64,000 nucleotides of DNA from Gemmataceae bacterium. Lineage in GTDB: Bacteria > Planctomycetota > Planctomycetia > Gemmatales > Gemmataceae. The notes below the pieces were generated by a model. The model made no database searches. It saw nothing but the letters and a program-made list of their open reading frames with translations, and was not told the origin of the DNA. The position numbers were made by a program, and so were the translations under genes. The DNA lies in assembly GCA_003136315.1 (NCBI GenBank), contig PLDW01000516.1, positions 53,086-117,085 of the forward strand, read 5' to 3'. This document shows, one piece after another, positions 2,226-22,598 of this stretch (positions are counted from its first letter, which is position 1; each line of letters starts with the position of its first letter).

Positions 2226-2695
2226 CAGTAGCCCATCCCCAGTTCCTGGGCCTCGGCGGTAAGCTGGTCGAGCACCTTGGCCCTGGCATCGTCGTCCTTT
2301 CGCTTGAAGGCCATCAGGTCGTCAAACCGGACGCGACGGTATTTGCCGACGGTTCGACCGGGGAGTTTTCCTTCGTCCAGCAGCTTGACCATGTAGGGCC
2401 GTGAGACGTTCAGCAGGTCGGCAGCTTGCTGGGTGGTCAATTCGGCATGGGTGGGGATGAGGGTGACGGCGTTGCCCTGCGACATTTCGGTTAGAAGGTG
2501 CAGGAACAGTCGTAGCGCGGACTCTGGCACGTCAACCGTCTCAGCCGTTTCGCCATCGCCCTGAACCTGAATGCGGATGCTTGTCTTCCGACCCAGCTTG
2601 CTGGTGGCGAGACGTCGGCTCGATTCGCGGGCGAGCAGGGCATCGGCCTCGCTCGGCGCAACCGTCTCAAAATTATGGGGAATTAGTGCGGCCAT
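2225..2695 (-). CDS. excisionase-family HTH DNA-binding protein (putative antitoxin of the PIN toxin)
   Basis: ELTTQQAADLLNVSRPYMVKLLDEGKLP...GKYRRV, HTH_17-like; coupled to PIN gene. Confidence 0.85.
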   Translation of the reverse strand: MAALIPHNFETVAPSEADALLARESSRRLATSKLGRKTSIRIQVQGDGETAETVDVPESALRLFLHLLTEMSQGNAVTLIPTHAELTTQQAADLLNVSRPYMVKLLDEGKLPGRTVGKYRRVRFDDLMAFKRKDDDARAKVLDQLTAEAQELGMGY

Positions 2696-2794
2696 TGGAA
2701 TCTTCCTCCTATCTCGTTACAAGTGTATTCTACCACGGACTCGAAACAGACGCAATGCTCGAATTTCTCGAAACGGACAGAACGGCGAGGTGCC

Positions 2795-3263
2795 GCTGCT
2801 CGATGGTGAGGCGGCGTTCGTCGGCAGGAAGTTCGAGGAAACAGAGCCTCATGTGGTCCCCTCAGCCAGCTCGCGGAAAATCGGGTGCATCCATGCGGGG
2901 GCGAGCCGCAAGCCCTTGATGAGTTCTCGCCGTTTCTCGGCCGGGAGGGTCCGCTTCAGGTGGTCCCGCCGCTCCGGGGTTATATGTTCTTCGCCGAGTT
3001 CCCGAAGGGCCTGAATCAGCAGGCCGCTCAACCGTCCGGCCGCCTCCATGTTCCTCGTGGTTGTTCGCCTCAATTGAATCGTGATGGGGCCGATCTCGAC
3101 CGTGCGGGCTGGGCCATCGGTCAGGAACACCGCCTTCGCTGGCACTTGCTCGGATAGACCCAGGGCATTTGCCGTATAGGCTCCCGCGGGTTGCAGGCGA
3201 GTGCGGTCGCGACCTGCCAATGCACGGGCAATCGCCTCGGCAGACGGTGACAACGGCCCCAGT
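2795..3263 (-). pseudogene. C-terminal part of a DUF6088/AbiEi-type antitoxin plus first ~19 codons of an AbiEii-type toxin
   Basis: LLGPLSPSAEAIARALAG...GAYTANALGLSEQVPAKAVFLTDGP lacks the N-terminal wHTH; the stop overlaps (ATGA) an ORF start MRLCFLELPADERRLTIEQ that then loses similarity. Confidence 0.75.
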
Positions 3264-3377
3264 AGTGCCCGGTTTAGTGCCCCCAGCGGCTGATTGTTCC
3301 AGCCAACGAGGCCGAACCTGTATCGCTGCCCCCAAGAACATTCTGTTTTCTTGCTGTGGCAGTGCCGTCCTGATCCC
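3264..3377 (+). repeat. diverged ~114-bp direct repeat, copy 1 (three AGTGCC motifs)
   Basis: First 20 bp agtgcccggtttagtgcccc identical to 14997-15016; similarity continues to gatccc at 3377 / 15111. Confidence 0.85.
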
Positions 3378-3403
3378 TGTTGCTTTGGATGCAGCGCCAG
3401 CAG

Positions 3404-5410
3404 TCAATCAGTTGGTGCGAGTCCATGAGGTGGCGTTAAAAGTCGATCTGTGGGGATATGTGGGCCAACGATACTCAGAAGTGCCCGTTCGATACCAGAT
3501 CCTGGATTTCGAGCTGTCAGGATGTTTCCGGCGACGACACATGTCATCGACAGCAGGTCCACCAAGCCAAGAGAATGGGCTTCAGCCACTTTGAGCGCGG
3601 CTTCCCGCACTTTCACCGCAGTGCGAACGGCTAGCCCAGTCAACGGAGAAGCCGCTATCGCAGGATGCACTTTCAGAATGTCCTCCGCAGTGGTGCCATC
3701 GATGTAAATCGCTTTAAGGATTTCCTGCATCGTGCGCTCGTCGACAAGCATTCTCATCGCTGCTGACCTCACGATAGCATCGAGCCTTACCAAATCCTCC
3801 AGAGGATGTCCGGGGCCGCTATAGGCAAAATCGATGAACGCTGGACTTCGATCCAGCACCAGGATATTACGGCCGTGGATGTCGCCGTGAATCACCCCAC
3901 GGGCGGCGTTAGGCTCAAGGACTGTCATCGCATTTGCAACCAGCTCCGATAACTTCATGGGATGCCAATCCTGATCGATTATTTCAAAATCGATCCCATG
4001 CTGGGCGATACTGCGAATGGGCCAATTCAGCCAAAAAGTCCCCGTGTCCAAGGTGCGGTTAGGGCGAGAATTAAGATCAACCAGACGAGCGACTATACGC
4101 GATAAAGCCACAAACATGTCGTTAGATTTTTGCAAGGTCTGGTCGATTGAGACTAAGGAATTCCACTCTGACATTCGCAACTGTTCTAAACAGTCCTCCA
4201 GCGTGGGAGCTGGGGCGGCATTGCCATCAGGCGTTGCTTGCAAACGGTATGAAATCGCAGCACTACCCACATGGGAGTGGAAGGCAGGATCGGTAATGCT
4301 TGGTTCCCAGTTCTGAACCCATTTTCTGTACTTCTGAAGCTCTGATGAAAGTAATTCTGTTTCCCCAACCTTGGCCACAAAGGGCTGCGTTGTTCCGTCG
4401 CTCAACATAAATACGCGGGCTCCCGATTGCCCGCCCGCAAGTTCCCTCGTTCCTAACTTGCGAATACGAAGAGGATGGTCAGGATGCCTCCGGTTGGCTG
4501 CAATAAGGCGAAGCAGAGAGGCATCCGACTCGGAAAGGCCCAGTGGGAAAAAATCCGCTGCGTCAGCGTCCTCTTGAAATTGTGCAATCGACAGAAGAGT
4601 CGTGATGTCGGCCGGCGTCAGGTCACAGTCCAGCCCGTGGCAAAATTTCTCTCCGTCGAGTATTCCGCATCTGAAAGCGGCAGCATTTTTAGCAAAGGTC
4701 TCAGCATTCGCTGAGCTCAGTCCGTCTATCGACACGCGGACAAACAGAAATGTCGAATATTCGCAAAGTCGGCGAAGAGTGCGTTTCTGGTCGGTTTGAT
4801 TAACGTGCTCCCAAGCTGAAGCGCCTATGACAAAGCCACACAGACCAGTGATCGCAAGCTCCCAAAGTTGCTCAATGGTAGGAATCTGGAGTGGGGCGAT
4901 ATTGGCATTTGCCAACATTGATTTATTTCGCACATGCTCATCTGACGTTCCAATCAGTGCAACTGCACGGAACCTATCCGACTTTGGCGACTGAGTCATG
5001 CTTCCGCCTGACTCTTCGTGGTGAGGTGTACTCGGTTTTACAACAGGGGACGTGGACTGAGGCTGCTGCGGCCTCGCAGGTATCTGGAAAGCAAGATGCC
5101 GTAACTCGGGAGGTAAAAGAGTGCGGACGGCATTGAGTGCATCTGGTGATGTGCCCCGTAGAATTACCGCGATGGTTTCCAGGGAGGGAGGGTCATCCGC
5201 TACGATAGCAGAAACGACAAGCCGGAACCGGCGGTCGAATTCACGGCGCGTGATGCCAGGCTGTTCCTGAAGCCTTCGGACAAGCTGTCCGATGAGTGCT
5301 GGTTTATTTCGCACTTCGAATGCGACTCGCCGAAGCCGGTGCAGCGCACGATCAAACGTGCCCGTATCGATTTCCAGCAAATCTTGATCCCATTCAAAAG
5401 CCTGAGCCAT
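3404..5410 (-). CDS. kinase (APH/TCAD9-like phosphotransferase) with N-terminal helical and receiver-like regions
   Basis: ELAGGQSGARVF glycine loop, FVAKVG lysine, HGDIHGRNILV catalytic loop, FIDFA metal-binding motif. Confidence 0.8.
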   Translation of the reverse strand: MAQAFEWDQDLLEIDTGTFDRALHRLRRVAFEVRNKPALIGQLVRRLQEQPGITRREFDRRFRLVVSAIVADDPPSLETIAVILRGTSPDALNAVRTLLPPELRHLAFQIPARPQQPQSTSPVVKPSTPHHEESGGSMTQSPKSDRFRAVALIGTSDEHVRNKSMLANANIAPLQIPTIEQLWELAITGLCGFVIGASAWEHVNQTDQKRTLRRLCEYSTFLFVRVSIDGLSSANAETFAKNAAAFRCGILDGEKFCHGLDCDLTPADITTLLSIAQFQEDADAADFFPLGLSESDASLLRLIAANRRHPDHPLRIRKLGTRELAGGQSGARVFMLSDGTTQPFVAKVGETELLSSELQKYRKWVQNWEPSITDPAFHSHVGSAAISYRLQATPDGNAAPAPTLEDCLEQLRMSEWNSLVSIDQTLQKSNDMFVALSRIVARLVDLNSRPNRTLDTGTFWLNWPIRSIAQHGIDFEIIDQDWHPMKLSELVANAMTVLEPNAARGVIHGDIHGRNILVLDRSPAFIDFAYSGPGHPLEDLVRLDAIVRSAAMRMLVDERTMQEILKAIYIDGTTAEDILKVHPAIAASPLTGLAVRTAVKVREAALKVAEAHSLGLVDLLSMTCVVAGNILTARNPGSGIERALLSIVGPHIPTDRLLTPPHGLAPTD

Positions 5411-17012: not shown

Positions 17013-17654
17013 CTACCTCTGAGAAGCTCCTGGGCTATATTGCTGGATTTGCGAGTGGTCCATCCTGCCGATGAAATTTAGGATGAATGTTGGTGTCAGC
17101 TTGTCTTCGTTCTTGACGGCTCTCGACTTCTCTGCGTCACTGAACCGCATGCCTTCGCCAAGAATGCCGTCAGCCTCTAGCTTCAGGGTCCATTGGATTA
17201 TCTCAGTGATGACGGCCCCCATGATCCCCTTTAGTTGGTGCGTTGCAACAATGAGATAGAATTCCACCTCTAGTTCAAAGTAGCGCATCAACTGCTGTTG
17301 TAAAAGCGGAGGAGGAATAATTTTAATTTGATTCTTACTAGCATCAAGTAGATGTTGGATTCTCGTTATTGATTCTCGCATTCGAACTTTACTTACTTCG
17401 CTATCCATCTGAGGGTCGCCAATAGAAGCCCCCTGGGTGCCATGAAAAGGGTTCCAGTAGCTGAGTTGTCCTTGGAGCATCCGGTAGAGAGGTGGTTCGA
17501 CCCCGTTTGGGTATCCGTCAAGTTCGAGCTGTATCCAGGATTTGAACTTCTGCAAATTCAGTTTGGTTGCGACGACCAATGCCCTCTGAAGCACGTTCGC
17601 CACATCAGGCTTAGTTTGTAGTGCGGCAGCCTGAAGATCCTCTACTAAGGCCAT
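17013..17654 (-). CDS. AbiTii-domain protein ending in a RHIM/amyloid-like motif
   Basis: LQAAAL..DVANVLQRALVVATKL....SWIQLELDGY....PLYR AbiTii pattern; C-terminus FIGRMDHSQIQQYSPGASQR*; ATG 17654. Confidence 0.82.
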   Translation of the reverse strand: MALVEDLQAAALQTKPDVANVLQRALVVATKLNLQKFKSWIQLELDGYPNGVEPPLYRMLQGQLSYWNPFHGTQGASIGDPQMDSEVSKVRMRESITRIQHLLDASKNQIKIIPPPLLQQQLMRYFELEVEFYLIVATHQLKGIMGAVITEIIQWTLKLEADGILGEGMRFSDAEKSRAVKNEDKLTPTFILNFIGRMDHSQIQQYSPGASQR

Positions 17655-17655
17655 G

Positions 17656-18288
17656 TCAGAGCCCTCCCACCGAATCGAAATAGTCCTGAATGGCCTTCCG
17701 AGCCGCATGGGCTTTGACAACGACGCCTTCCACGAGTTTTCCTGTGATCCCTGTGGTTAGCTTGTCTCGGAGACCGGTAAACAATTCACGAAGCAGGTGC
17801 CCCTTCGGCTTTGGGGACTTGAGCATGGCTTCTGCCGCTATGGCGTCCGCCCTCGCTTCTTCCTTGTCGGTAGGGTCCAGGTCAAGATCCTCTAGGACGG
17901 ATAGGAACGACCGGATCGCGTTCTCCGCTTTCTCGTGGGCACCGGCGTTGTGAACGGTCAGGGTTTGCGTGGCTCCCGGACTGTTCGACTGGATCGCCGA
18001 GTTGGTCATCGTACCGACGTTAAACACCGTGGACGGCTGGCCCGGGGAGTACGGATGGTGGAACGCCCGAATCACGGGCTCGCGAATCCCAAAATTCGGT
18101 AACTCAGGAACCTCTCCTACCTCCTCGATTTCGTACCTGTCGCGGGAGAGTTTCGACTGGATTATATCTCCCTGACGAACGTCAATGCCAATAGGGAACA
18201 AAACCCACTTGGCTTTGGCTTCAGGTCGCCACCCTTTGACTTCGGCGACGAGTTGGCCCGCCCGCAGGATGTCGAATAACTCGCCCAT
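17656..18288 (-). CDS. beta-barrel + amyloid-like motif + helical-bundle protein (paralog 2)
   Basis: Collinear similarity to 18304-18972 over all three regions; RBS; 1-bp gap to the AbiTii start. Confidence 0.8.
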   Translation of the reverse strand: MGELFDILRAGQLVAEVKGWRPEAKAKWVLFPIGIDVRQGDIIQSKLSRDRYEIEEVGEVPELPNFGIREPVIRAFHHPYSPGQPSTVFNVGTMTNSAIQSNSPGATQTLTVHNAGAHEKAENAIRSFLSVLEDLDLDPTDKEEARADAIAAEAMLKSPKPKGHLLRELFTGLRDKLTTGITGKLVEGVVVKAHAARKAIQDYFDSVGGL

Positions 18289-18303
18289 GTTGCCACTCCC
18301 TCG

Positions 18304-18972
18304 CTAGCTCCCCATCTGGTTGATCGTGCTCTCGATTGCCTTGTAAGCTGCATCTCCCTTAGACAAAGCGACTGCTGCCACCCTCTCGGTCAGGCCAGCC
18401 TTCACCTTATCTCGGATAGCAGCCAGGAACTCCTTAACCTGTTGCCACTTGGTTTTTGGCGAATTGGTCTGGGCTTTTACGGATTCTGCGTCCGCCTTGA
18501 CCTCTTCCTTGTCGTCAGGGGTGAGGTCTAACTCGTCGATCACCTCAAGGACCAGGCGGATCGCCTCTTTGGCACTCTCTTTCTGGTCAATCCCGAAGGT
18601 GACGGTCTGGGTGGCGTGTGGGCTGTGAATTTGGAGGGCCGAGTTCAGAATGTTACCGGCGTTGATAACCGATCCGTGGACGACCATGTGGGGGCGGTCG
18701 ATATGCGGGGCGACTTGGTAGAAAGCCTTCAGTTTTACCACTTCCGTACCCATCACATACGGTTCCACCCGGTCAATCAGGTGCGTTTTCTTGCTTAAGA
18801 TGAGCGAGACTTCGTCACCGGCTTGTACCTCGATTTCGGGCGAGAATTCCACGCAAGGCTCTTCTTTGCGAACCATCGTCTTTGCGCGGAAGACGACGGC
18901 CCCACCTCTGCGAACCTCCGCATCTTGCCCAAGTTGGATCAGGGCCATCTTGAAGGCGGGGGAAGCAAGCAT
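18304..18972 (-). CDS. beta-barrel + amyloid-like motif + helical-bundle protein (paralog 1)
   Basis: GGAGGT RBS before ATG 18972; paralogous to 17656-18288. Confidence 0.8.
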   Translation of the reverse strand: MLASPAFKMALIQLGQDAEVRRGGAVVFRAKTMVRKEEPCVEFSPEIEVQAGDEVSLILSKKTHLIDRVEPYVMGTEVVKLKAFYQVAPHIDRPHMVVHGSVINAGNILNSALQIHSPHATQTVTFGIDQKESAKEAIRLVLEVIDELDLTPDDKEEVKADAESVKAQTNSPKTKWQQVKEFLAAIRDKVKAGLTERVAAVALSKGDAAYKAIESTINQMGS

Positions 18973-19178: not shown

Positions 19179-20498
19179 TTACGCAGCCACGTCGATAGCG
19201 TCCTTAATGACCTTGGCCGAACTCAGAACGGACGCGACCCCCGACGCTACTTCCTTGATGCGATTGAAATACCGGCGGACGAGTCCGGGTTCGTGAACCT
19301 TCTTCTCCAGTTCCAACGTGATTCGCCCCAAGCTGTCGTTTACGTCCGCCTGATCGGTCTGGCTCAGTCGCGCCGTTTCGACGGCTTCCCGAGCGGTGAT
19401 GAGGGTCTTTTTGGTCGCCTCATCCAGCGCGGAGTTGTTCACCGCCTCGCTGTAAACCGTGATGTCTCGGGCGTTGATTGTTCCGGACCCCACCAACCCC
19501 GCATTTACGTTGCCGTGAACCGTGTTCTTGTCGCCCATTACTACGTCTCCCAGGATTACAGGACTACCGCCGTGAAGCAGTTGAACGTCACGGATGAACT
19601 TTTCTAGCTCACTGCCGTTCATCTCCGATAGCTTGTCATTAAGATACTCGCGGTATCTATCGAATACTTCCTTGTTTTTCTCAGAGAACTCGCGCAGCCA
19701 GTCCTTGTTGCACGGATATTGTTCACTAAGGCGTTTCTTTGTAACTCGCCGCTTCCCATTTTGCAGAACTTCAACGAGGCCGCTCGCAGTATCCAAGTTC
19801 TCCTGTTGAAGAAAGGTGAGCACGAAATCCCGATAGTACTCCTGATGATCCGCAGCTATCTTCCGCCGGATCATCCATCTTGGGATAAGAATTATAGGAC
19901 TGTTTTCATAAATTGGTAGAAATGCGGTGTCGTTTTTCCAAGCGTGTTGGTCTTCCAGCCACGCTACACCGCGGGGGATACGCCTTAGCGGAACCCCATA
20001 TTTGAAACACTGCTCAGCCGTGAAAGCGGCGAGTTCCCCCCGGATGATGTTGGTGGTAATGTCGGAAATCTTGTCCTGAGAAATGCCAGGGATGAGGAGT
20101 TCGCAATCGCTCAGGTCACGGAGCAGACCGGTTTTCACGGCCTCGCTCTTCGCCAGCTTGTCGTATACCTGTCCCGCCTGCAACTTCCCGACCCCCCGAC
20201 CTTGGGGAGAAGTACTCGACACCCCGAGCCGGGTTTCGTTCGGCTCGTTGAGGTTGTCGAGAAGTCGCCGACCGCGGTGATCTCGACCGGTCCGGATGCA
20301 ATCGAGGATCGTTTCAAAAAAGTCAACGACGAGATTATTACACACAACCGCCTTGTCATCTAACCCCACCTTGAATGCGTAGGGGTCGACGTAGACGGGC
20401 AGGTCGGTGGTTAAGAGGATGTCTACGAAATCAAGCTCTTGCTGAGGTTTGTTAATCCCGAAGTATTCTGAGAACCGCGGGCAGGTCGATTTACCCAT
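19179..20498 (-). CDS. hypothetical defence-island protein: ~330-aa globular domain + G/N/V-rich motif + helical bundle
   Basis: Conserved-looking motifs FSEYFG, DLPVYVDP, EPNETRLG, GISQDKISD; tail GDKNTVHGNVNAGLVGSG then helical LSQTDQADVNDSLGRITLEL. Confidence 0.75.
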   Translation of the reverse strand: MGKSTCPRFSEYFGINKPQQELDFVDILLTTDLPVYVDPYAFKVGLDDKAVVCNNLVVDFFETILDCIRTGRDHRGRRLLDNLNEPNETRLGVSSTSPQGRGVGKLQAGQVYDKLAKSEAVKTGLLRDLSDCELLIPGISQDKISDITTNIIRGELAAFTAEQCFKYGVPLRRIPRGVAWLEDQHAWKNDTAFLPIYENSPIILIPRWMIRRKIAADHQEYYRDFVLTFLQQENLDTASGLVEVLQNGKRRVTKKRLSEQYPCNKDWLREFSEKNKEVFDRYREYLNDKLSEMNGSELEKFIRDVQLLHGGSPVILGDVVMGDKNTVHGNVNAGLVGSGTINARDITVYSEAVNNSALDEATKKTLITAREAVETARLSQTDQADVNDSLGRITLELEKKVHEPGLVRRYFNRIKEVASGVASVLSSAKVIKDAIDVAA

Positions 20499-20932: not shown

Positions 20933-21418
20933 CTAGCCGAACAGCCTCCTCATGATCCTCCCAAACCAGCCAGCCTGAGTGGGGTTTGCCGGTGTGGGCG
21001 GTGAAGCCGCTGCCATAGGGACCGGCGACAGGGGGATCGGGGACAACACAGAGGGAGAGGCAAGAACGTCGGGTCTCGGCTTCAGGCAGTCGATGTAGTT
21101 TGACTTGGCCTGCGAGTCAGCGGCCTGCCCGGCTTCGATTTCGGCACTGGACCACTGACTCGCCCACCTTATCTGGTTGTGGGTTATCCAGTAGTGGGAC
21201 TTGCACGGGAGGCTCCAGCTCCCTATCGATGGATAAAGGGAGATCGTCCGCCCATCGTAGATCAACTGCCAGTCGGCGGGGGACAGCGGCGTCACGACCT
21301 CGTTGCCACAGCCACAACAGCATTTGTGGACTACGGTTGCGTAGATCATCGAGATGTAGAGAGTTCCTTCTTGCAGGACGTCGGGAACGAACTCAACAAA
21401 CACTGGCGTGATTACCAT
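20933..21418 (-). CDS. DUF6527-family protein
   Basis: HKCCCGCGNEVVTPLSP..W......SLYPSIGSWSLPCKSHYWI; start overlaps upstream ThiF end. Confidence 0.88.
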   Translation of the reverse strand: MVITPVFVEFVPDVLQEGTLYISMIYATVVHKCCCGCGNEVVTPLSPADWQLIYDGRTISLYPSIGSWSLPCKSHYWITHNQIRWASQWSSAEIEAGQAADSQAKSNYIDCLKPRPDVLASPSVLSPIPLSPVPMAAASPPTPANPTQAGWFGRIMRRLFG

Positions 21419-22598
21419 TTTGCTCGCCCAGTTGGTCGCCGTTAATGAGCCCGCCAGTCCGCACGTTGTAAAACGAGTTATGCTCCTGCGGAACATCGTG
21501 GTAAAAGCCAAACAGCTTCTTCCATTTGACGACGGCAAGAGCCGCATTGAGGCAATTCAGGTCTGCGATCTGGATGTTCGTGGAGTAGGCGTCGTCAACA
21601 TCGTCCACGAGCGAAACCCGGCGGCGCACGTGGTCACGCTTCGAGGGCGTGCTTGTGGTGACCCGGACCAGCCCGGACAACGCCCCGTCCTCCTGCGCCA
21701 ACCCCATACCGACATCGATAAAGGGAGTGCCCCACTCCTCCAACCTGGTGATCAGCGTCTTCTTGTACTTGCCGCCGTCGCAGCAGATGAAGACGAACTT
21801 CATCCCCCGGAGGCTTTCGACGTTGCTATCGTCGATGTACTCTGGGTGTGCGTGGATGCCCCGTCGCATGTTTGAGTAGAAGTCCCTGAAGTAGACCACC
21901 TTGTACTCGATCGATCGGAGGATTTCGATCGTCGGAGCACCGGGTGACCTGAAGGCGTTGTGGTTCAGAAACCGGTCCCCGTCGAACAGGTGTATCTCCT
22001 TGACAGGGCACTTCGCCAGGAGGTCGAGCACATAGGAGCCGGTGCCCCCAAGGCCCACGATGGCGACCTTCTCCAACTCCAGCTTGGCGGTAAGGGTGGT
22101 GATCCCGGCCCGGCTTGAGGCGGTGTCGGGGTAGCAGAAGACCGACTCGTCCTCAGTGGTTTCGGCGATTTTGTAGGTCTGGGCGGTCACCGTATTGTCG
22201 ATCGCTCTCGCCGGGGGCGTGATCATCTCGACGTAACGGGTGATCTGCTCGTAGTAGCCGGGGTAGCCCTCTGGCGGCTTGTTTGAGAAAGATCGGTTGG
22301 CTGTGAGGCTGTCGCTAATGTGGTAGGGGGTGGTAGTGTGCTTCAAGCCGGTTATCTCGGTCCCGTCGATATTGCACGGGTGGTCACCGATGAAGTAGGC
22401 AACGTGGGTGTCGGGTTTCTGGACCATGTCGCCCGCGATGACGAGCTTGACGGCGAGAACCCCATACGCGACCTCCTTGCCGGAGTTCACGTAGGGGATG
22501 TGCCCCACGAGGAGGTGGCTTGCGACCACCTCCAGTTCATACCCGTTGTCGCGGAGCCTGACGAGGTCCGGGCTACGAGCGATTAGTTGACTTGACAT
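21393..22598 (-). CDS. E2-like (DUF6791-type) + ThiF/E1 fusion protein
   Basis: N-terminal VGHIPYVN...HVAYFIGDHPC...FSNKP; C-terminal IVGLGGTGSYVLD, LFDGD..LNHNAFRSPG, FICCD, QIADLNCLNA. Confidence 0.88.
   Translation of the reverse strand: MSSQLIARSPDLVRLRDNGYELEVVASHLLVGHIPYVNSGKEVAYGVLAVKLVIAGDMVQKPDTHVAYFIGDHPCNIDGTEITGLKHTTTPYHISDSLTANRSFSNKPPEGYPGYYEQITRYVEMITPPARAIDNTVTAQTYKIAETTEDESVFCYPDTASSRAGITTLTAKLELEKVAIVGLGGTGSYVLDLLAKCPVKEIHLFDGDRFLNHNAFRSPGAPTIEILRSIEYKVVYFRDFYSNMRRGIHAHPEYIDDSNVESLRGMKFVFICCDGGKYKKTLITRLEEWGTPFIDVGMGLAQEDGALSGLVRVTTSTPSKRDHVRRRVSLVDDVDDAYSTNIQIADLNCLNAALAVVKWKKLFGFYHDVPQEHNSFYNVRTGGLINGDQLGEQNGNHASVC

What the first reader, a model, noticed from the sequence alone, without database searches (positions are those of the whole stretch)
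17013..18972. Candidate amyloid-signalling antiphage system: two paralogous sensors and an AbiTii effector share one RHIM-like motif
Seen: three tightly linked minus-strand genes (gaps of 15 and 1 bp) with otherwise different N-termini carry the same short motif. 18304-18972 has NAGNILNSALQIHSPHATQT, 17656-18288 has NVGTMTNSAIQSNSPGATQT, and 17013-17654 has FIGRMDHSQIQQYSPGASQR*. The consensus is G-x-[IM]-x-[NH]-S-[AQ]-[IL]-Q-x-x-S-P-[GH]-A-[TS]-Q. The first two genes are full-length paralogs: a beta-rich domain (F..I.V..GD.....S.....I..V...AF[YH]), then the motif, then a helical bundle (LDL.P.DKEE..ADA....SPK.K). In the third, the motif is the extreme C-terminus behind an AbiTii domain. Established: effector + terminal amyloid motif activated by a partner with the same motif is the logic of HET-S/NWD2, RIPK1/RIPK3 RHIM and bacterial BASS motifs. 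From memory (verify), the E. coli Bab/Agp system pairs a Bell death domain with a phage head-tail-connector-like amyloid protein. Inference: the two beta-barrels resemble gpFII/gp16 head-tail connectors and could sense two different virion parts, then template an amyloid fold onto a non-Bell, AbiTii-type effector. I do not know this two-sensor/AbiTii combination as described.
Basis: partly seen in the sequence, partly recalled or inferred. Interest (0 to 1): 0.93.

Follow-up and report, generated by a model that had tools for sequence, protein, structure and literature searches.

The report
Three-gene AbiT system sharing one motif
Three adjacent genes in a defence island form an unusual version of the AbiT phage-abortion system: one conserved 25-residue motif is the only thing shared by an AbiTii sensor protein and two partners with phage-neck-like heads, so it probably lets them assemble together.

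Summary
Three tightly packed minus-strand genes carry one short motif. A family-wide motif model scanned over the whole 11.6-Mb genome finds only these three genes.

The motif is the conserved start of the AbiTi module (motif plus four-helix bundle) of the lactococcal two-gene AbiT abortive-infection system. Most AbiTii proteins elsewhere are fused to this module. Here AbiTii stops right after the motif and has no bundle. The two paralogs carry motif plus bundle behind a beta-barrel head.

This split layout recurs in several other lineages. In those loci the motif variant of the short AbiTii matches that of its own neighbours.

The beta-barrel models with high confidence. Its best structural matches are phage head-to-tail stopper and neck proteins, but no match reaches E 0.001.

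Not supported:
- AbiTii as the effector. It is always the N-terminal head in front of variable output domains.
- The RHIM label.
- The recalled description of Agp.

Amyloid-type templating is possible but untested. I found no paper that describes the shared motif of AbiT systems. I rate this a new variant of a known kind.

The parts
17013..17654 (-). Short AbiTii gene (213 aa): AbiTii domain plus C-terminal motif, with no helical bundle
   Evidence: Pfam PF18864 E 1.4e-36, residues 3-181. PADLOC AbiTii E 9.8e-40. Orthologs P0005 and P0006 (60% and 57% identity) end at the same point.
17112..17648 (-). AbiTii domain (residues 3-181), proposed sensor head
   Evidence: The domain is always N-terminal in the 113 homologs surveyed. 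PMC3710099 describes it as an N-terminal domain fused to HEPN effectors.
17016..17090 (-). C-terminal motif of AbiTii: TFILNFIGRMDHSQIQQYSPGASQR, followed by the stop codon
   Evidence: Family motif HMM 22.6 bits, E 1.6e-4 against the whole genome. Tail identity to orthologs is 74-78%, against 54-58% for the domain.
17656..18288 (-). Paralog 2 (210 aa): beta-barrel head, motif, four-helix bundle. This is the divergent extra copy.
   Evidence: 34% identity to paralog 1, E 5e-29. PADLOC PDC-M14B E 1e-4 and AbiTi E 0.032 on residues 92-187. No close homolog in 5.8 billion proteins.
17953..18027 (-). Motif of paralog 2: VFNVGTMTNSAIQSNSPGATQTLTV
   Evidence: Motif HMM 46.1 bits, E 1e-11. It is the best genome-wide match to the AbiTii tail.
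18304..18972 (-). Paralog 1 (222 aa): beta-barrel head, motif, four-helix bundle. It is the ortholog of the single partner found in related loci.
   Evidence: 51% identity to P0010 (partner in L001) and 45% to P0011 (partner in L002). AlphaFold2: beta domain 5-85, low-confidence stretch 88-126, four helices 126-220.
18712..18960 (-). Head domain of paralog 1 (residues 5-87): one helix plus a six-stranded beta-barrel, phage stopper-like fold
   Evidence: Domain-only AlphaFold2 model: pLDDT 91.2, pTM 0.78. Nine of the top 12 Foldseek PDB hits are phage neck or stopper proteins: T4 neck, T1 stopper, lambda chain of gpFII size, Douge connector, PBSX XkdH. The named BFVD top hits are head-to-tail stopper or connector proteins. 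All E-values are 0.003 or weaker.
18595..18672 (-). Motif of paralog 1: SVINAGNILNSALQIHSPHATQTVTF
   Evidence: Motif HMM 37.7 bits, E 4e-9. It lies in the only low-confidence stretch of the model (pLDDT 38-52), yet it is the best-conserved region between the paralogs: 54% against 24% for the head and 37% for the bundle.
18313..18597 (-). AbiTi-type four-helix bundle of paralog 1 (residues 126-220), with the conserved SPK(T/P)K turn
   Evidence: A profile of the paralog family retrieves 945 representatives, including AbiTii-fused proteins at E about 1e-16 to 1e-10. The C-half of a fused homolog hits PADLOC AbiTi at E 2.6e-14.
19179..20498 (-). Neighbouring gene (439 aa): PDC-M36A-type head, a different G/N/V-rich motif (19452-19550) and an AbiTi/PDC-M14B-like helical tail. 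Probably a separate unit of the same modular family.
   Evidence: PADLOC PDC-M36A E 3.9e-32 (residues 7-246) and PDC-M14B E 7e-5 (residues 350-426). Its motif is not detected by the family motif HMM.

Best explanation
This is a three-gene variant of the AbiT abortive-infection family.

Shown:
- The shared 'motif' is the conserved N-terminal element of the AbiTi module. Its consensus is N-x-I-N-[IV]-G-x-M-x-N-S-x-I-Q-Q-x-S-P-G-A-T-Q, and a four-helix bundle follows it.
- In most relatives AbiTii is fused to this module in a single chain.
- Here AbiTii keeps only the motif. Two paralogs carry motif plus bundle behind a beta-barrel head.
- The motif is the best-conserved segment of these proteins.
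- The same split layout recurs in other lineages, and the motif variant of a short AbiTii matches that of its neighbours.

Inferred:
- The motif is a homotypic beta-strand assembly element. Through it the bundle-less AbiTii head docks onto, or co-assembles with, the bundle-bearing partners. Three recognition heads (AbiTii and two stopper-like barrels) would then feed two output bundles.
- The heads probably sense late phage products such as capsid or connector assemblies. Clustering of heads on such a multimeric target would bring the motifs together and switch the adjacent bundles into an active, cell-killing or phage-blocking state.
- What the bundle does is unknown. The possibilities are membrane damage or some other toxic activity.
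For: Family assignment:
- AbiTii domain: E 1.4e-36.
- A fused homolog contains AbiTii (residues 4-186) plus AbiTi (185-293, E 2.6e-14, covering 3-113 of 114 model positions), so the AbiTi model starts at the motif.
- The window paralogs hit AbiTi and PDC-M14B weakly. Their family profile retrieves AbiTii-fused proteins at E 1e-16 to 1e-10.

Architecture:
- Among AbiTii ORFs from 140+ loci, 70 are fused to the module, 15 are short and 50 carry other C-terminal modules.
- Thirteen of the 15 short forms end in a motif tail, and in 10 of those 13 a partner gene with the motif lies in the same locus.
- One locus (L087) has five partners around one short AbiTii. Some partners there and in L081 carry the same motif in front of a different C-terminal domain.

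Co-variation:
- Cognate tail-partner similarity beats shuffled pairings: p = 2e-5 for 10 loci, and 4 of 40320 permutations for 8 loci.
- In L035 the two AbiTii domains are 28% identical but the motifs are 72% identical. In L017 the figures are 37% and 65%.

Specificity:
- Only these three genes in the genome carry the motif.

Conservation:
- The motif columns are the most conserved of the module: S 91%, Q 89%, Q 90%.
- AlphaFold2 nevertheless leaves the motif unstructured in the monomer (pLDDT 38-52) between two confident domains.

Other support:
- The heads resemble phage stopper and neck proteins.
- The review PMC13064643 lists capsid-protein escape mutants for lactococcal AbiT.
- The genes sit in a defence island: AbiE, a UvrD-like helicase, a PDC-M36A-type gene and E1-like systems.
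- The short form arose more than once on the AbiTii tree: 6 changes by parsimony, at least 2 forced by well-supported branches.
Against: - No physical interaction, assembly or phage phenotype has been shown for any member other than lactococcal AbiT. I could not fetch its sequences, so I did not check the motif there.
- Motif matching between neighbours could partly reflect recent common ancestry or gene conversion rather than selection for pairing. The co-variation signal is carried mostly by a few distinct motif classes.
- Stopper-head partners of one clade sit next to a different, non-AbiTii gene, and one is apparently alone. They therefore do not need AbiTii.
- An Enterococcus short AbiTii pairs with a transmembrane protein and shares no motif with it.
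- The window's bundles have no hydrophobic segment (maximum Kyte-Doolittle 0.9) and no catalytic signature. They have no structural relative in the PDB either.
- The stopper-like fold match never reaches E 0.001, and small beta-barrels such as HtrA halves also appear among the hits.
Confidence: 0.6

Rival explanations
1. Amyloid or prion-like signalling. The motif is a true templating element. Infection makes one protein nucleate a cross-beta fold, which then propagates to the motifs of the others and activates a death domain, as in HET-S/NWD2, RIPK1/RIPK3 or Bab/Agp.
For: - The same roughly 25-residue motif, rich in G, N, Q and S with alternating hydrophobic residues, occurs on products of adjacent genes.
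- It is unstructured in the monomer model yet highly conserved.
- It sits directly next to a helical bundle, as the HET-S prion-forming domain does.
- The motif variants match between partner genes.
- Other AbiTii proteins carry different beta-prone motifs in the same position, one of them with a V-Q-I-G-D-Y-N core resembling RHIM.
- Amyloid signalling in phage defence has a precedent in Bab/Agp.
Against: - Nothing here tests fibril formation.
- The window motif lacks the G-phi-Q-phi-G core and contains a conserved proline. No Pfam amyloid-motif family matches.
- There is no NLR/STAND receptor and no Bell or HeLo domain.
- In most family members the motif is internal, in a single-chain protein, where no transfer of signal between proteins is needed.
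- A stable, non-propagating beta-sheet interface explains the same data.
Confidence: 0.22
2. Constitutive structural collar. The motif is an ordinary oligomerisation strand that builds a permanent hetero-oligomer of AbiTii and AbiTi-type subunits. Activation happens elsewhere in the complex, and the motif is not a switch.
For: - The fused single-chain forms dominate (70 of 135). This suggests that the motif is a structural part of one machine.
- The split genes are translationally coupled, with gaps of 1 and 15 bp. That pattern is typical of stoichiometric complexes.
Against: - AlphaFold2 gives no packed structure for the motif, although it models both flanking domains confidently.
- One short AbiTii can sit among five partners and among proteins with other C-terminal domains. 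That looks more like a shared docking code than a fixed complex.
Confidence: 0.15
3. Direct interference with head completion. The stopper-like heads bind phage portal-adaptor complexes in place of the phage's own stopper and block tail joining. The bundle and AbiTii only stabilise or regulate this, and the cell need not die.
For: - The heads resemble head-to-tail stopper and neck proteins.
- Partners with this head occur without AbiTii.
Against: - The fold match is only moderate.
- The same motif-bundle module is attached to unrelated heads (AbiTii, HTH-like and others). This argues that the module, not the head, is the common output.
- The named relative, AbiT, is described as abortive infection.
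Confidence: 0.1
4. Decay product. The short AbiTii is a remnant of a fused AbiTii-AbiTi gene cut by a stop codon. The shared motif then reflects only common descent, with no present function.
For: Fused forms are the majority and are probably ancestral.
Against: - Three orthologs at 54-58% domain identity keep the same end point, and their tails are more conserved than their domains.
- Independent lineages also end just after the I-Q-Q core.
- The partners' heads are unrelated to AbiTii, so the similarity does not come from a recent local duplication.
- The reading frames are intact and tightly coupled.
Confidence: 0.04

Closest known systems
AbiT of Lactococcus lactis (AbiTi 127 aa + AbiTii 213 aa), a two-gene abortive-infection system
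   Same: - There is an AbiTii-domain protein of the same length (213 aa).
- It lies next to proteins that carry the AbiTi module.
- The genes sit in a defence island.
- The mechanism of the family is still unknown.
   Different: - There are two AbiTi-type partners instead of one.
- Each partner carries an extra phage-stopper-like beta-barrel head.
- The host is a large-genome environmental bacterium.
- I found the shared motif described in no paper.
- I could not check whether the lactococcal pair has the motif.
Single-chain AbiTii-AbiTi fusion proteins of plasmids and chromosomes (Aeromonas, Pseudomonas, Klebsiella, Vibrio and others)
   Same: They have the same three elements in the same order: AbiTii head, motif, helical bundle.
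   Different: Here the chain is split after the motif, and the motif is present on both sides of the split.
Bab/Agp of E. coli (BASS11 amyloid signalling; bioRxiv 10.1101/2024.11.07.622273)
   Same: - Adjacent defence genes share a roughly 20-25-residue motif.
- One of the proteins is a small helical protein.
- The outcome is abortive infection.
   Different: - Bab is a Bell-type domain with an N-terminal pore helix. [quoted passage not shown]
- The motif sequence is unrelated.
- Amyloid behaviour is shown there and untested here.
HET-S/NWD2 and Bell/NLR BASS pairs (fungal and bacterial amyloid signalling)
   Same: - A matched motif lies on neighbouring sensor and effector genes.
- The motif variants are specific to each pair.
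- All-in-one fused versions coexist with split versions.
   Different: - There is no STAND NTPase receptor and no HeLo or Bell domain.
- The motif lies N-terminal to the bundle rather than C-terminal.
- The window motif does not match RHIM, the only amyloid-motif family tested by name; the BASS and HET-s motif sequences were not compared directly.
Phage head-to-tail stopper proteins (SPP1 gp16, lambda gpFII, T4 neck proteins)
   Same: The predicted fold of the paralogs' heads.
   Different: - There is no detectable sequence relationship.
- The head is fused to a defence module in a cellular defence island, not placed in a phage morphogenesis operon.
PADLOC candidate systems PDC-M14 and PDC-M36
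   Same: The helical tails of the paralogs and of the upstream gene match PDC-M14B. The head of the upstream gene matches PDC-M36A.
   Different: These are computational candidates. No paper on them turned up in the library searched.

Membership tests
AbiT (AbiTi + AbiTii) abortive-infection system | A protein with the AbiTii domain | tested here: met
   Pfam PF18864 E 1.4e-36 at 126.9 bits, against a cut-off of 27.6. PADLOC AbiTii E 9.8e-40.
AbiT (AbiTi + AbiTii) abortive-infection system | An adjacent gene encoding an AbiTi-family protein | tested here: met
   The direct PADLOC AbiTi hit is weak (E 0.032 for paralog 2, residues 92-187 on model positions 9-103 of 114). The paralog-family profile retrieves AbiTii-fused proteins at E 1e-16 to 1e-10, and the C-half of such a fusion hits AbiTi at E 2.6e-14.
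AbiT (AbiTi + AbiTii) abortive-infection system | Both genes are needed for phage resistance, with an abortive phenotype | not testable with these tools
   This needs phage challenge of deletion mutants.
AbiT (AbiTi + AbiTii) abortive-infection system | The prototype lactococcal pair also shares the motif | not tested
   The original paper and the GenBank record were not available. Only the lengths fit: 213 aa is a roughly 185-residue domain plus a roughly 25-residue tail.
Amyloid signalling pairs (HET-s/NWD2, BASS, Bab/Agp) | The same short motif on the products of adjacent genes, matched within each pair | tested here: met
Amyloid signalling pairs (HET-s/NWD2, BASS, Bab/Agp) | A STAND/NLR or TGP-type receptor paired with a HeLo, Hell or Bell membrane-targeting domain | tested here: not met
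   Pfam, NCBIfam and PADLOC give no such domain in any of the three proteins. There is no N-terminal hydrophobic helix.
Amyloid signalling pairs (HET-s/NWD2, BASS, Bab/Agp) | The motif forms fibrils and templates its partner | not testable with these tools
   The only evidence is indirect: the motif is unstructured in the monomer model.
RHIM / PP / BASS3 motif family | A central G-phi-Q-phi-G core and a match to the family model | tested here: not met
   The window motifs read S-A-I-Q-S-N, S-A-L-Q-I-H and S-Q-I-Q-Q-Y, with no flanking glycines. Pfam gave no RHIM hit even at E 10.
Phage head-to-tail stopper fold (gp16 / gpFII-like) for the paralogs' heads | Structural similarity at fold level | tested here: inconclusive
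   The model has pLDDT 91. The top PDB and BFVD hits are mostly stopper or neck proteins, with probability 0.94-1.0 and TM 0.45-0.58, but the best E-values are 0.003 (BFVD) and 0.025 (PDB). PHROGs gave no hit.

The most novel reading that the evidence does not exclude
The whole AbiT family would be a combinatorial immune network wired by a short, pair-specific beta motif. The family includes the classical two-gene system, the common single-chain fusions and arrays like this one.

The motif would work by templated, amyloid-like assembly. Interchangeable heads would gather on multimeric phage assemblies and so nucleate the motif, which then converts the adjacent four-helix bundle into a killing form. 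The heads include AbiTii, HTH-like domains and, here, decoys of the phage's own head-to-tail stopper.

This would be a second, much more widespread bacterial amyloid-signalling system. It would be independent of NLRs and Bell domains, and it would explain a 20-year-old orphan Abi mechanism.
Probability: 0.2. Interest if true: 0.9.

Novelty: new variant of a known kind. Interest (0 to 1): 0.72.

Why it matters
AbiT has been known since 2002, but the 2026 review I read gives no mechanism for it.

Four findings give a concrete and cheaply testable hypothesis for how the family is wired:
- The two AbiT components, their fused relatives and many proteins with other heads share one conserved motif.
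- That motif is unstructured in the monomer model.
- Bundle-less AbiTii proteins keep exactly this motif.
- The motif variants match between neighbouring genes.

The hypothesis is motif-driven co-assembly of sensor heads with a common helical output module.

The stopper-like heads add a second idea, that a defence system uses a copy of a phage neck protein as bait.

If the assembly proves to be templated, amyloid-type signalling in bacterial immunity would extend far beyond the single Bab/Agp example.

Tried and rejected
- **Lactococcal AbiT sequences.** The 2002 paper (PMC151939) and record AF483000 are not held. Plasmid tblastn found only a 299-aa lactococcal AbiTii fusion and an Enterococcus AbiTii + transmembrane-protein pair with no shared motif. 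The prototype therefore remains unchecked.
- **RHIM or other amyloid families.** Pfam gave no hits, even for the isolated motif peptides and for the V-Q-I-G-D-Y-N variants.
- **Sequence link from the heads to phage stopper families.** PHROGs gave nothing for the head domains. The one odd hit was a weak match to a holin family (E 3.5e-4) for one ortholog, spanning head to bundle, and I did not trust it.
- **Solved relatives.** There are none by sequence for either family. The full-length model has no significant Foldseek hit in the PDB.
- **Membrane-protein idea for the bundle.** The window proteins have no hydrophobic segment. Only 16 of 146 family representatives have a C-terminal 19-mer with Kyte-Doolittle of 1.6 or more.
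- **HEPN or RNase idea.** There is no R-x(4-6)-H in the conserved columns. The review's 'endoribonuclease-like' remark for AbiTi rests on a partial structural overlay.
- **Paralog-only motif HMM.** It ranked the AbiTii tail only 5th genome-wide (10.7 bits, E about 1). The family-wide HMM was needed for significance.
- **Promoter and terminator scan.** It found nothing beyond chance.
- **Pseudogene reading of AbiTii.** Rejected on conservation.
Full report
**1. What is there**

Three minus-strand genes lie at 18304-18972 (P0003, 222 aa), 17656-18288 (P0002, 210 aa) and 17013-17654 (P0001, 213 aa). They are separated by 15 bp and 1 bp.

P0002 and P0003 are paralogs: 34% identity, E 5e-29. P0001 has an AbiTii domain at residues 3-181 (Pfam E 1.4e-36, PADLOC E 9.8e-40).

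The surroundings are a defence island:
- a UvrD-like helicase;
- AbiEi/AbiEii directly downstream;
- a gene with a PDC-M36A-type head upstream;
- a DUF6527 / DUF6791-ThiF pair.

**2. Is the shared motif more than chance?**

Yes, by three tests.

- I scanned the 19-residue AbiTii tail, ungapped, over all 15.0 million six-frame residues of the organism's 11.6-Mb assembly. The best non-self match was the motif of the adjacent gene (score 47; next best 39; the 99.99th percentile of per-frame maxima is 35).
- An HMM built only from the paralog family ranked the AbiTii tail fifth (10.7 bits), which is not significant on its own.
- A 26-position HMM was built from 142 representatives of the wider family, leaving out the window's own proteins. 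It gave exactly three hits in the genome: P0002 at 46.1 bits (E 1e-11), P0003 at 37.7 bits (E 4e-9) and the AbiTii tail at 22.6 bits (E 1.6e-4). The next hit scored 9.4 bits (E 3.8).

**3. What the motif is**

Homologs of P0001 fall into two kinds.

- Two proteins at 57-60% identity end right after the motif, as P0001 does (...RMDNSQLQQFSPSASQNG and ...RMEKSQLQQFSPGASQTT). Each has one P0003-like gene directly upstream.
- Longer proteins (294-301 aa) have the AbiTii domain continuing into the motif and then a helical region. In these, PADLOC finds AbiTii (residues 4-186) followed by AbiTi (185-293, E 2.6e-14, covering positions 3-113 of 114).

The motif is therefore the first conserved element of the AbiTi module. 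AbiTi is the small partner protein of the lactococcal two-gene AbiT system.

A profile of the paralog family found 945 representatives among 1.84 billion clustered proteins. They come in three length classes:
- about 105-145 aa: module alone;
- about 200-230 aa: a roughly 95-residue head plus the module;
- about 290-350 aa: AbiTii or another head plus the module.

The family consensus is N-x-I-N-[IV]-G-x-M-x-N-S-x-I-Q-Q-x-S-P-G-A-T-Q-x-V-T-[IF]. The motif columns are the most conserved of the whole module (S 91%, Q 89%, Q 90%), together with an S-P-K-P-K turn in the bundle.

**4. Structure**

AlphaFold2 on P0003 gives three parts:
- a confident beta domain (residues 5-85);
- a confident four-helix bundle (126-220);
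- a low-confidence stretch (88-126, pLDDT 38-52) that holds the motif.

The motif is thus the best-conserved part and yet unstructured in the monomer. Between the paralogs it is 54% identical, against 24% for the head and 37% for the bundle. This combination is expected of an element that folds only on assembly.

Neither family has a solved relative by sequence. None of the window proteins has a hydrophobic segment.

**5. The heads**

The head alone, modelled with a 34-sequence alignment, reaches pLDDT 91.2 and pTM 0.78.

Foldseek finds no match at E 0.001 or better. The ranking is nevertheless telling.

- In BFVD the top named hits are head-to-tail stopper, connector or joining proteins of 110-120 aa (E 0.003-0.02, probability 0.99-1.0, TM 0.43-0.53).
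- In the PDB, nine of the top twelve hits are neck or stopper proteins:
  - T4 neck complex chains (E 0.025, TM 0.52-0.56);
  - the T1 stopper;
  - the phiCD508 neck;
  - the Douge connector;
  - a lambda chain of gpFII size;
  - PBSX XkdH.
- SPP1 gp16 appears lower down.
- Half-barrels of HtrA-type proteases also appear, so a generic small-barrel resemblance is not excluded.
- PHROGs gave no sequence support.

**6. Does the pattern generalise?**

I collected AbiTii loci from genomes (40 loci), metagenomes (80) and viral contigs (4).

Of the AbiTii ORFs with a complete domain, 70 are fused to the AbiTi module, 50 carry other C-terminal modules and 15 are short. Thirteen of the 15 short forms end in a motif tail, and in 10 of those 13 a partner gene bearing the motif lies in the same locus.

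Partner motif and short-AbiTii tail, locus by locus:

| Locus | Partner motif | Short-AbiTii tail |
|---|---|---|
| Pseudomonas L017 | ITVGTMENSQVQQD | INIHSMENSQIQQA |
| Fimbriiglobus L009 | LSVGSMNSSVIQQNSPGA | VAVGAMDESAVQQSSPRG |
| L069 (same stopper-like head as here) | VSIQTMTNSTLQQASPGAVQN | INIDNMVGSSIQQMSPGANQG |
| L035 | NFYGSVGNVAQNSEHFSQT | TFYASVGSVAQNSQDFTQT |

In L087, five paralogs with an HTH-like head surround one short AbiTii.

In L087 and L081 some neighbours carry the same motif in front of a different C-terminal domain.

Cognate tail-partner similarity exceeds shuffled pairings: p = 2e-5 for ten loci, and 4 of 40320 permutations for eight loci.

In L035 the two AbiTii domains are 28% identical but the motifs are 72% identical. 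In L017 the figures are 37% and 65%.

On a tree of 113 AbiTii domains the short state needs six changes by parsimony. At least two are forced by well-supported branches.

The organism's own genome holds a second, divergent AbiTii pair on another contig, with a weaker resemblance (ITFNLSNCSIEQ and IHYVLVNPSIYQ).

**7. Which part senses and which part acts**

In every AbiTii protein surveyed the domain is N-terminal. It is followed by some beta-prone stretch rich in G, N, Q and S, and then by one of several helical C-terminal modules.

Anantharaman et al. (PMC3710099) describe AbiTii as an N-terminal domain fused to HEPN effectors. This is the pattern of a recognition or regulatory head, not of an effector.

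The common output candidate is the motif-plus-bundle module. It is attached to many unrelated heads.

- AbiTii is a head without an output.
- The paralogs carry both a head and an output.

What the bundle does is not known. I found no catalytic signature and no membrane segment. The 2026 review notes only a partial structural overlay of AbiTi on an endoribonuclease.

**8. Mechanism proposed**

Shown:
- the architecture;
- the conservation;
- the specificity of the motif;
- the recurrence of the split layout;
- the matching of motif variants between neighbours.

Inferred:
- The motif is a homotypic beta-assembly element that couples the three proteins.
- The heads recognise phage products. These are probably late, multimeric head or neck assemblies, for two reasons: the heads have a stopper-like fold, and the review lists capsid-protein escape mutants for lactococcal AbiT.
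- Clustering of heads brings the motifs together and switches the adjacent bundle.

Whether the assembly is a propagating, amyloid-type template or a finite beta-sheet interface cannot be decided by computation here.

Facts that caution against a simple AbiTii-dependent model:
- One clade of stopper-head partners sits beside a different conserved gene.
- One such partner is apparently solitary.
- An Enterococcus short AbiTii pairs with a transmembrane protein and shares no motif with it.

**9. Comparison with known systems**

The locus passes the sequence criteria for the AbiT family. It differs from the prototype in having two partners with extra heads.

It shares the 'matched motif on neighbouring genes' logic of HET-S/NWD2, Bell/NLR BASS pairs and Bab/Agp. 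It has none of their domains, and it does not match the RHIM core or model.

In the paper library, no paper connects AbiT with amyloid, and no paper mentions PDC-M14 or PDC-M36. A search from 2021 onward returned no title on the AbiT mechanism, though I did not open those papers.

Earlier notes of this scan on other genomes reached similar readings for fused and two-gene AbiT-like loci. They are leads, not independent evidence.

**10. Verdict**

The shared motif and the stopper-like heads hold. AbiTii as effector, the RHIM label and the description of Agp do not. Amyloid behaviour is untested.
- Novelty: a new variant of a known kind.
- Interest: 0.72.

Noticed in passing
window 19179-20498 (-): The upstream gene has a PDC-M36A-type head (E 3.9e-32) and an AbiTi/PDC-M14B-like helical tail. 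Between them lies a different G/N/V-rich motif (GDVVMGDKNTVHGNVNAGLVGSGTINARDITVY, 19452-19550). The same modular plan appears twice in one island with non-matching motifs.
   Followed up: partly
L004 (own genome, contig C455:17557-18123 region): The genome has a second AbiTii locus. A short AbiTii (211 aa) ends ...ITFNLSNCSIEQLTNSGTNTKR. It is followed by a 142-aa helical protein that begins ...IHYVLVNPSIYQKAEQ. The resemblance is weak, and neither the family HMM nor Pfam recognises the partner.
   Followed up: partly
L087 (metagenome contig Ga0326727_10012850), 892-6607: Five paralogs with an HTH-like head, the motif and the AbiTi bundle surround one short AbiTii. A sixth gene has the same head and motif but a different C-terminal domain.
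   Followed up: partly
L020, L029, L044 and related loci (Verrucomicrobiota): These AbiTii proteins carry the linker IGTFSGVLGNVSGGNVQIGDYN. Its V-Q-I-G-D-Y-N core resembles the RHIM core tetrad. A different helical domain follows. Pfam's RHIM model does not detect it.
   Followed up: partly
L050 3785-4762 and L146 895-1860: One clade of stopper-head/AbiTi-bundle proteins is followed by a conserved gene of 320+ aa instead of AbiTii. That gene has no Pfam match, an N-terminus that looks like a restriction-endonuclease fold by eye, and a Cys-rich C-terminus.
   Followed up: partly
L145 (Enterococcus faecium plasmid pBN83-1) 1501-2698: A short AbiTii (208 aa) overlaps a 192-aa protein that has an N-terminal transmembrane helix. 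This is a different kind of AbiTii two-gene pair, with no shared motif.
   Followed up: no
L017 (Pseudomonas sp. NPDC087358) 2489-4633: A fused AbiTii-AbiTi gene sits directly next to a split AbiTi + short AbiTii pair. All three carry the same motif variant.
   Followed up: partly
window 20933-22598 (-): A DUF6527 protein overlaps a DUF6791-ThiF (E1-like) protein directly upstream of the AbiT-like block.
   Followed up: no
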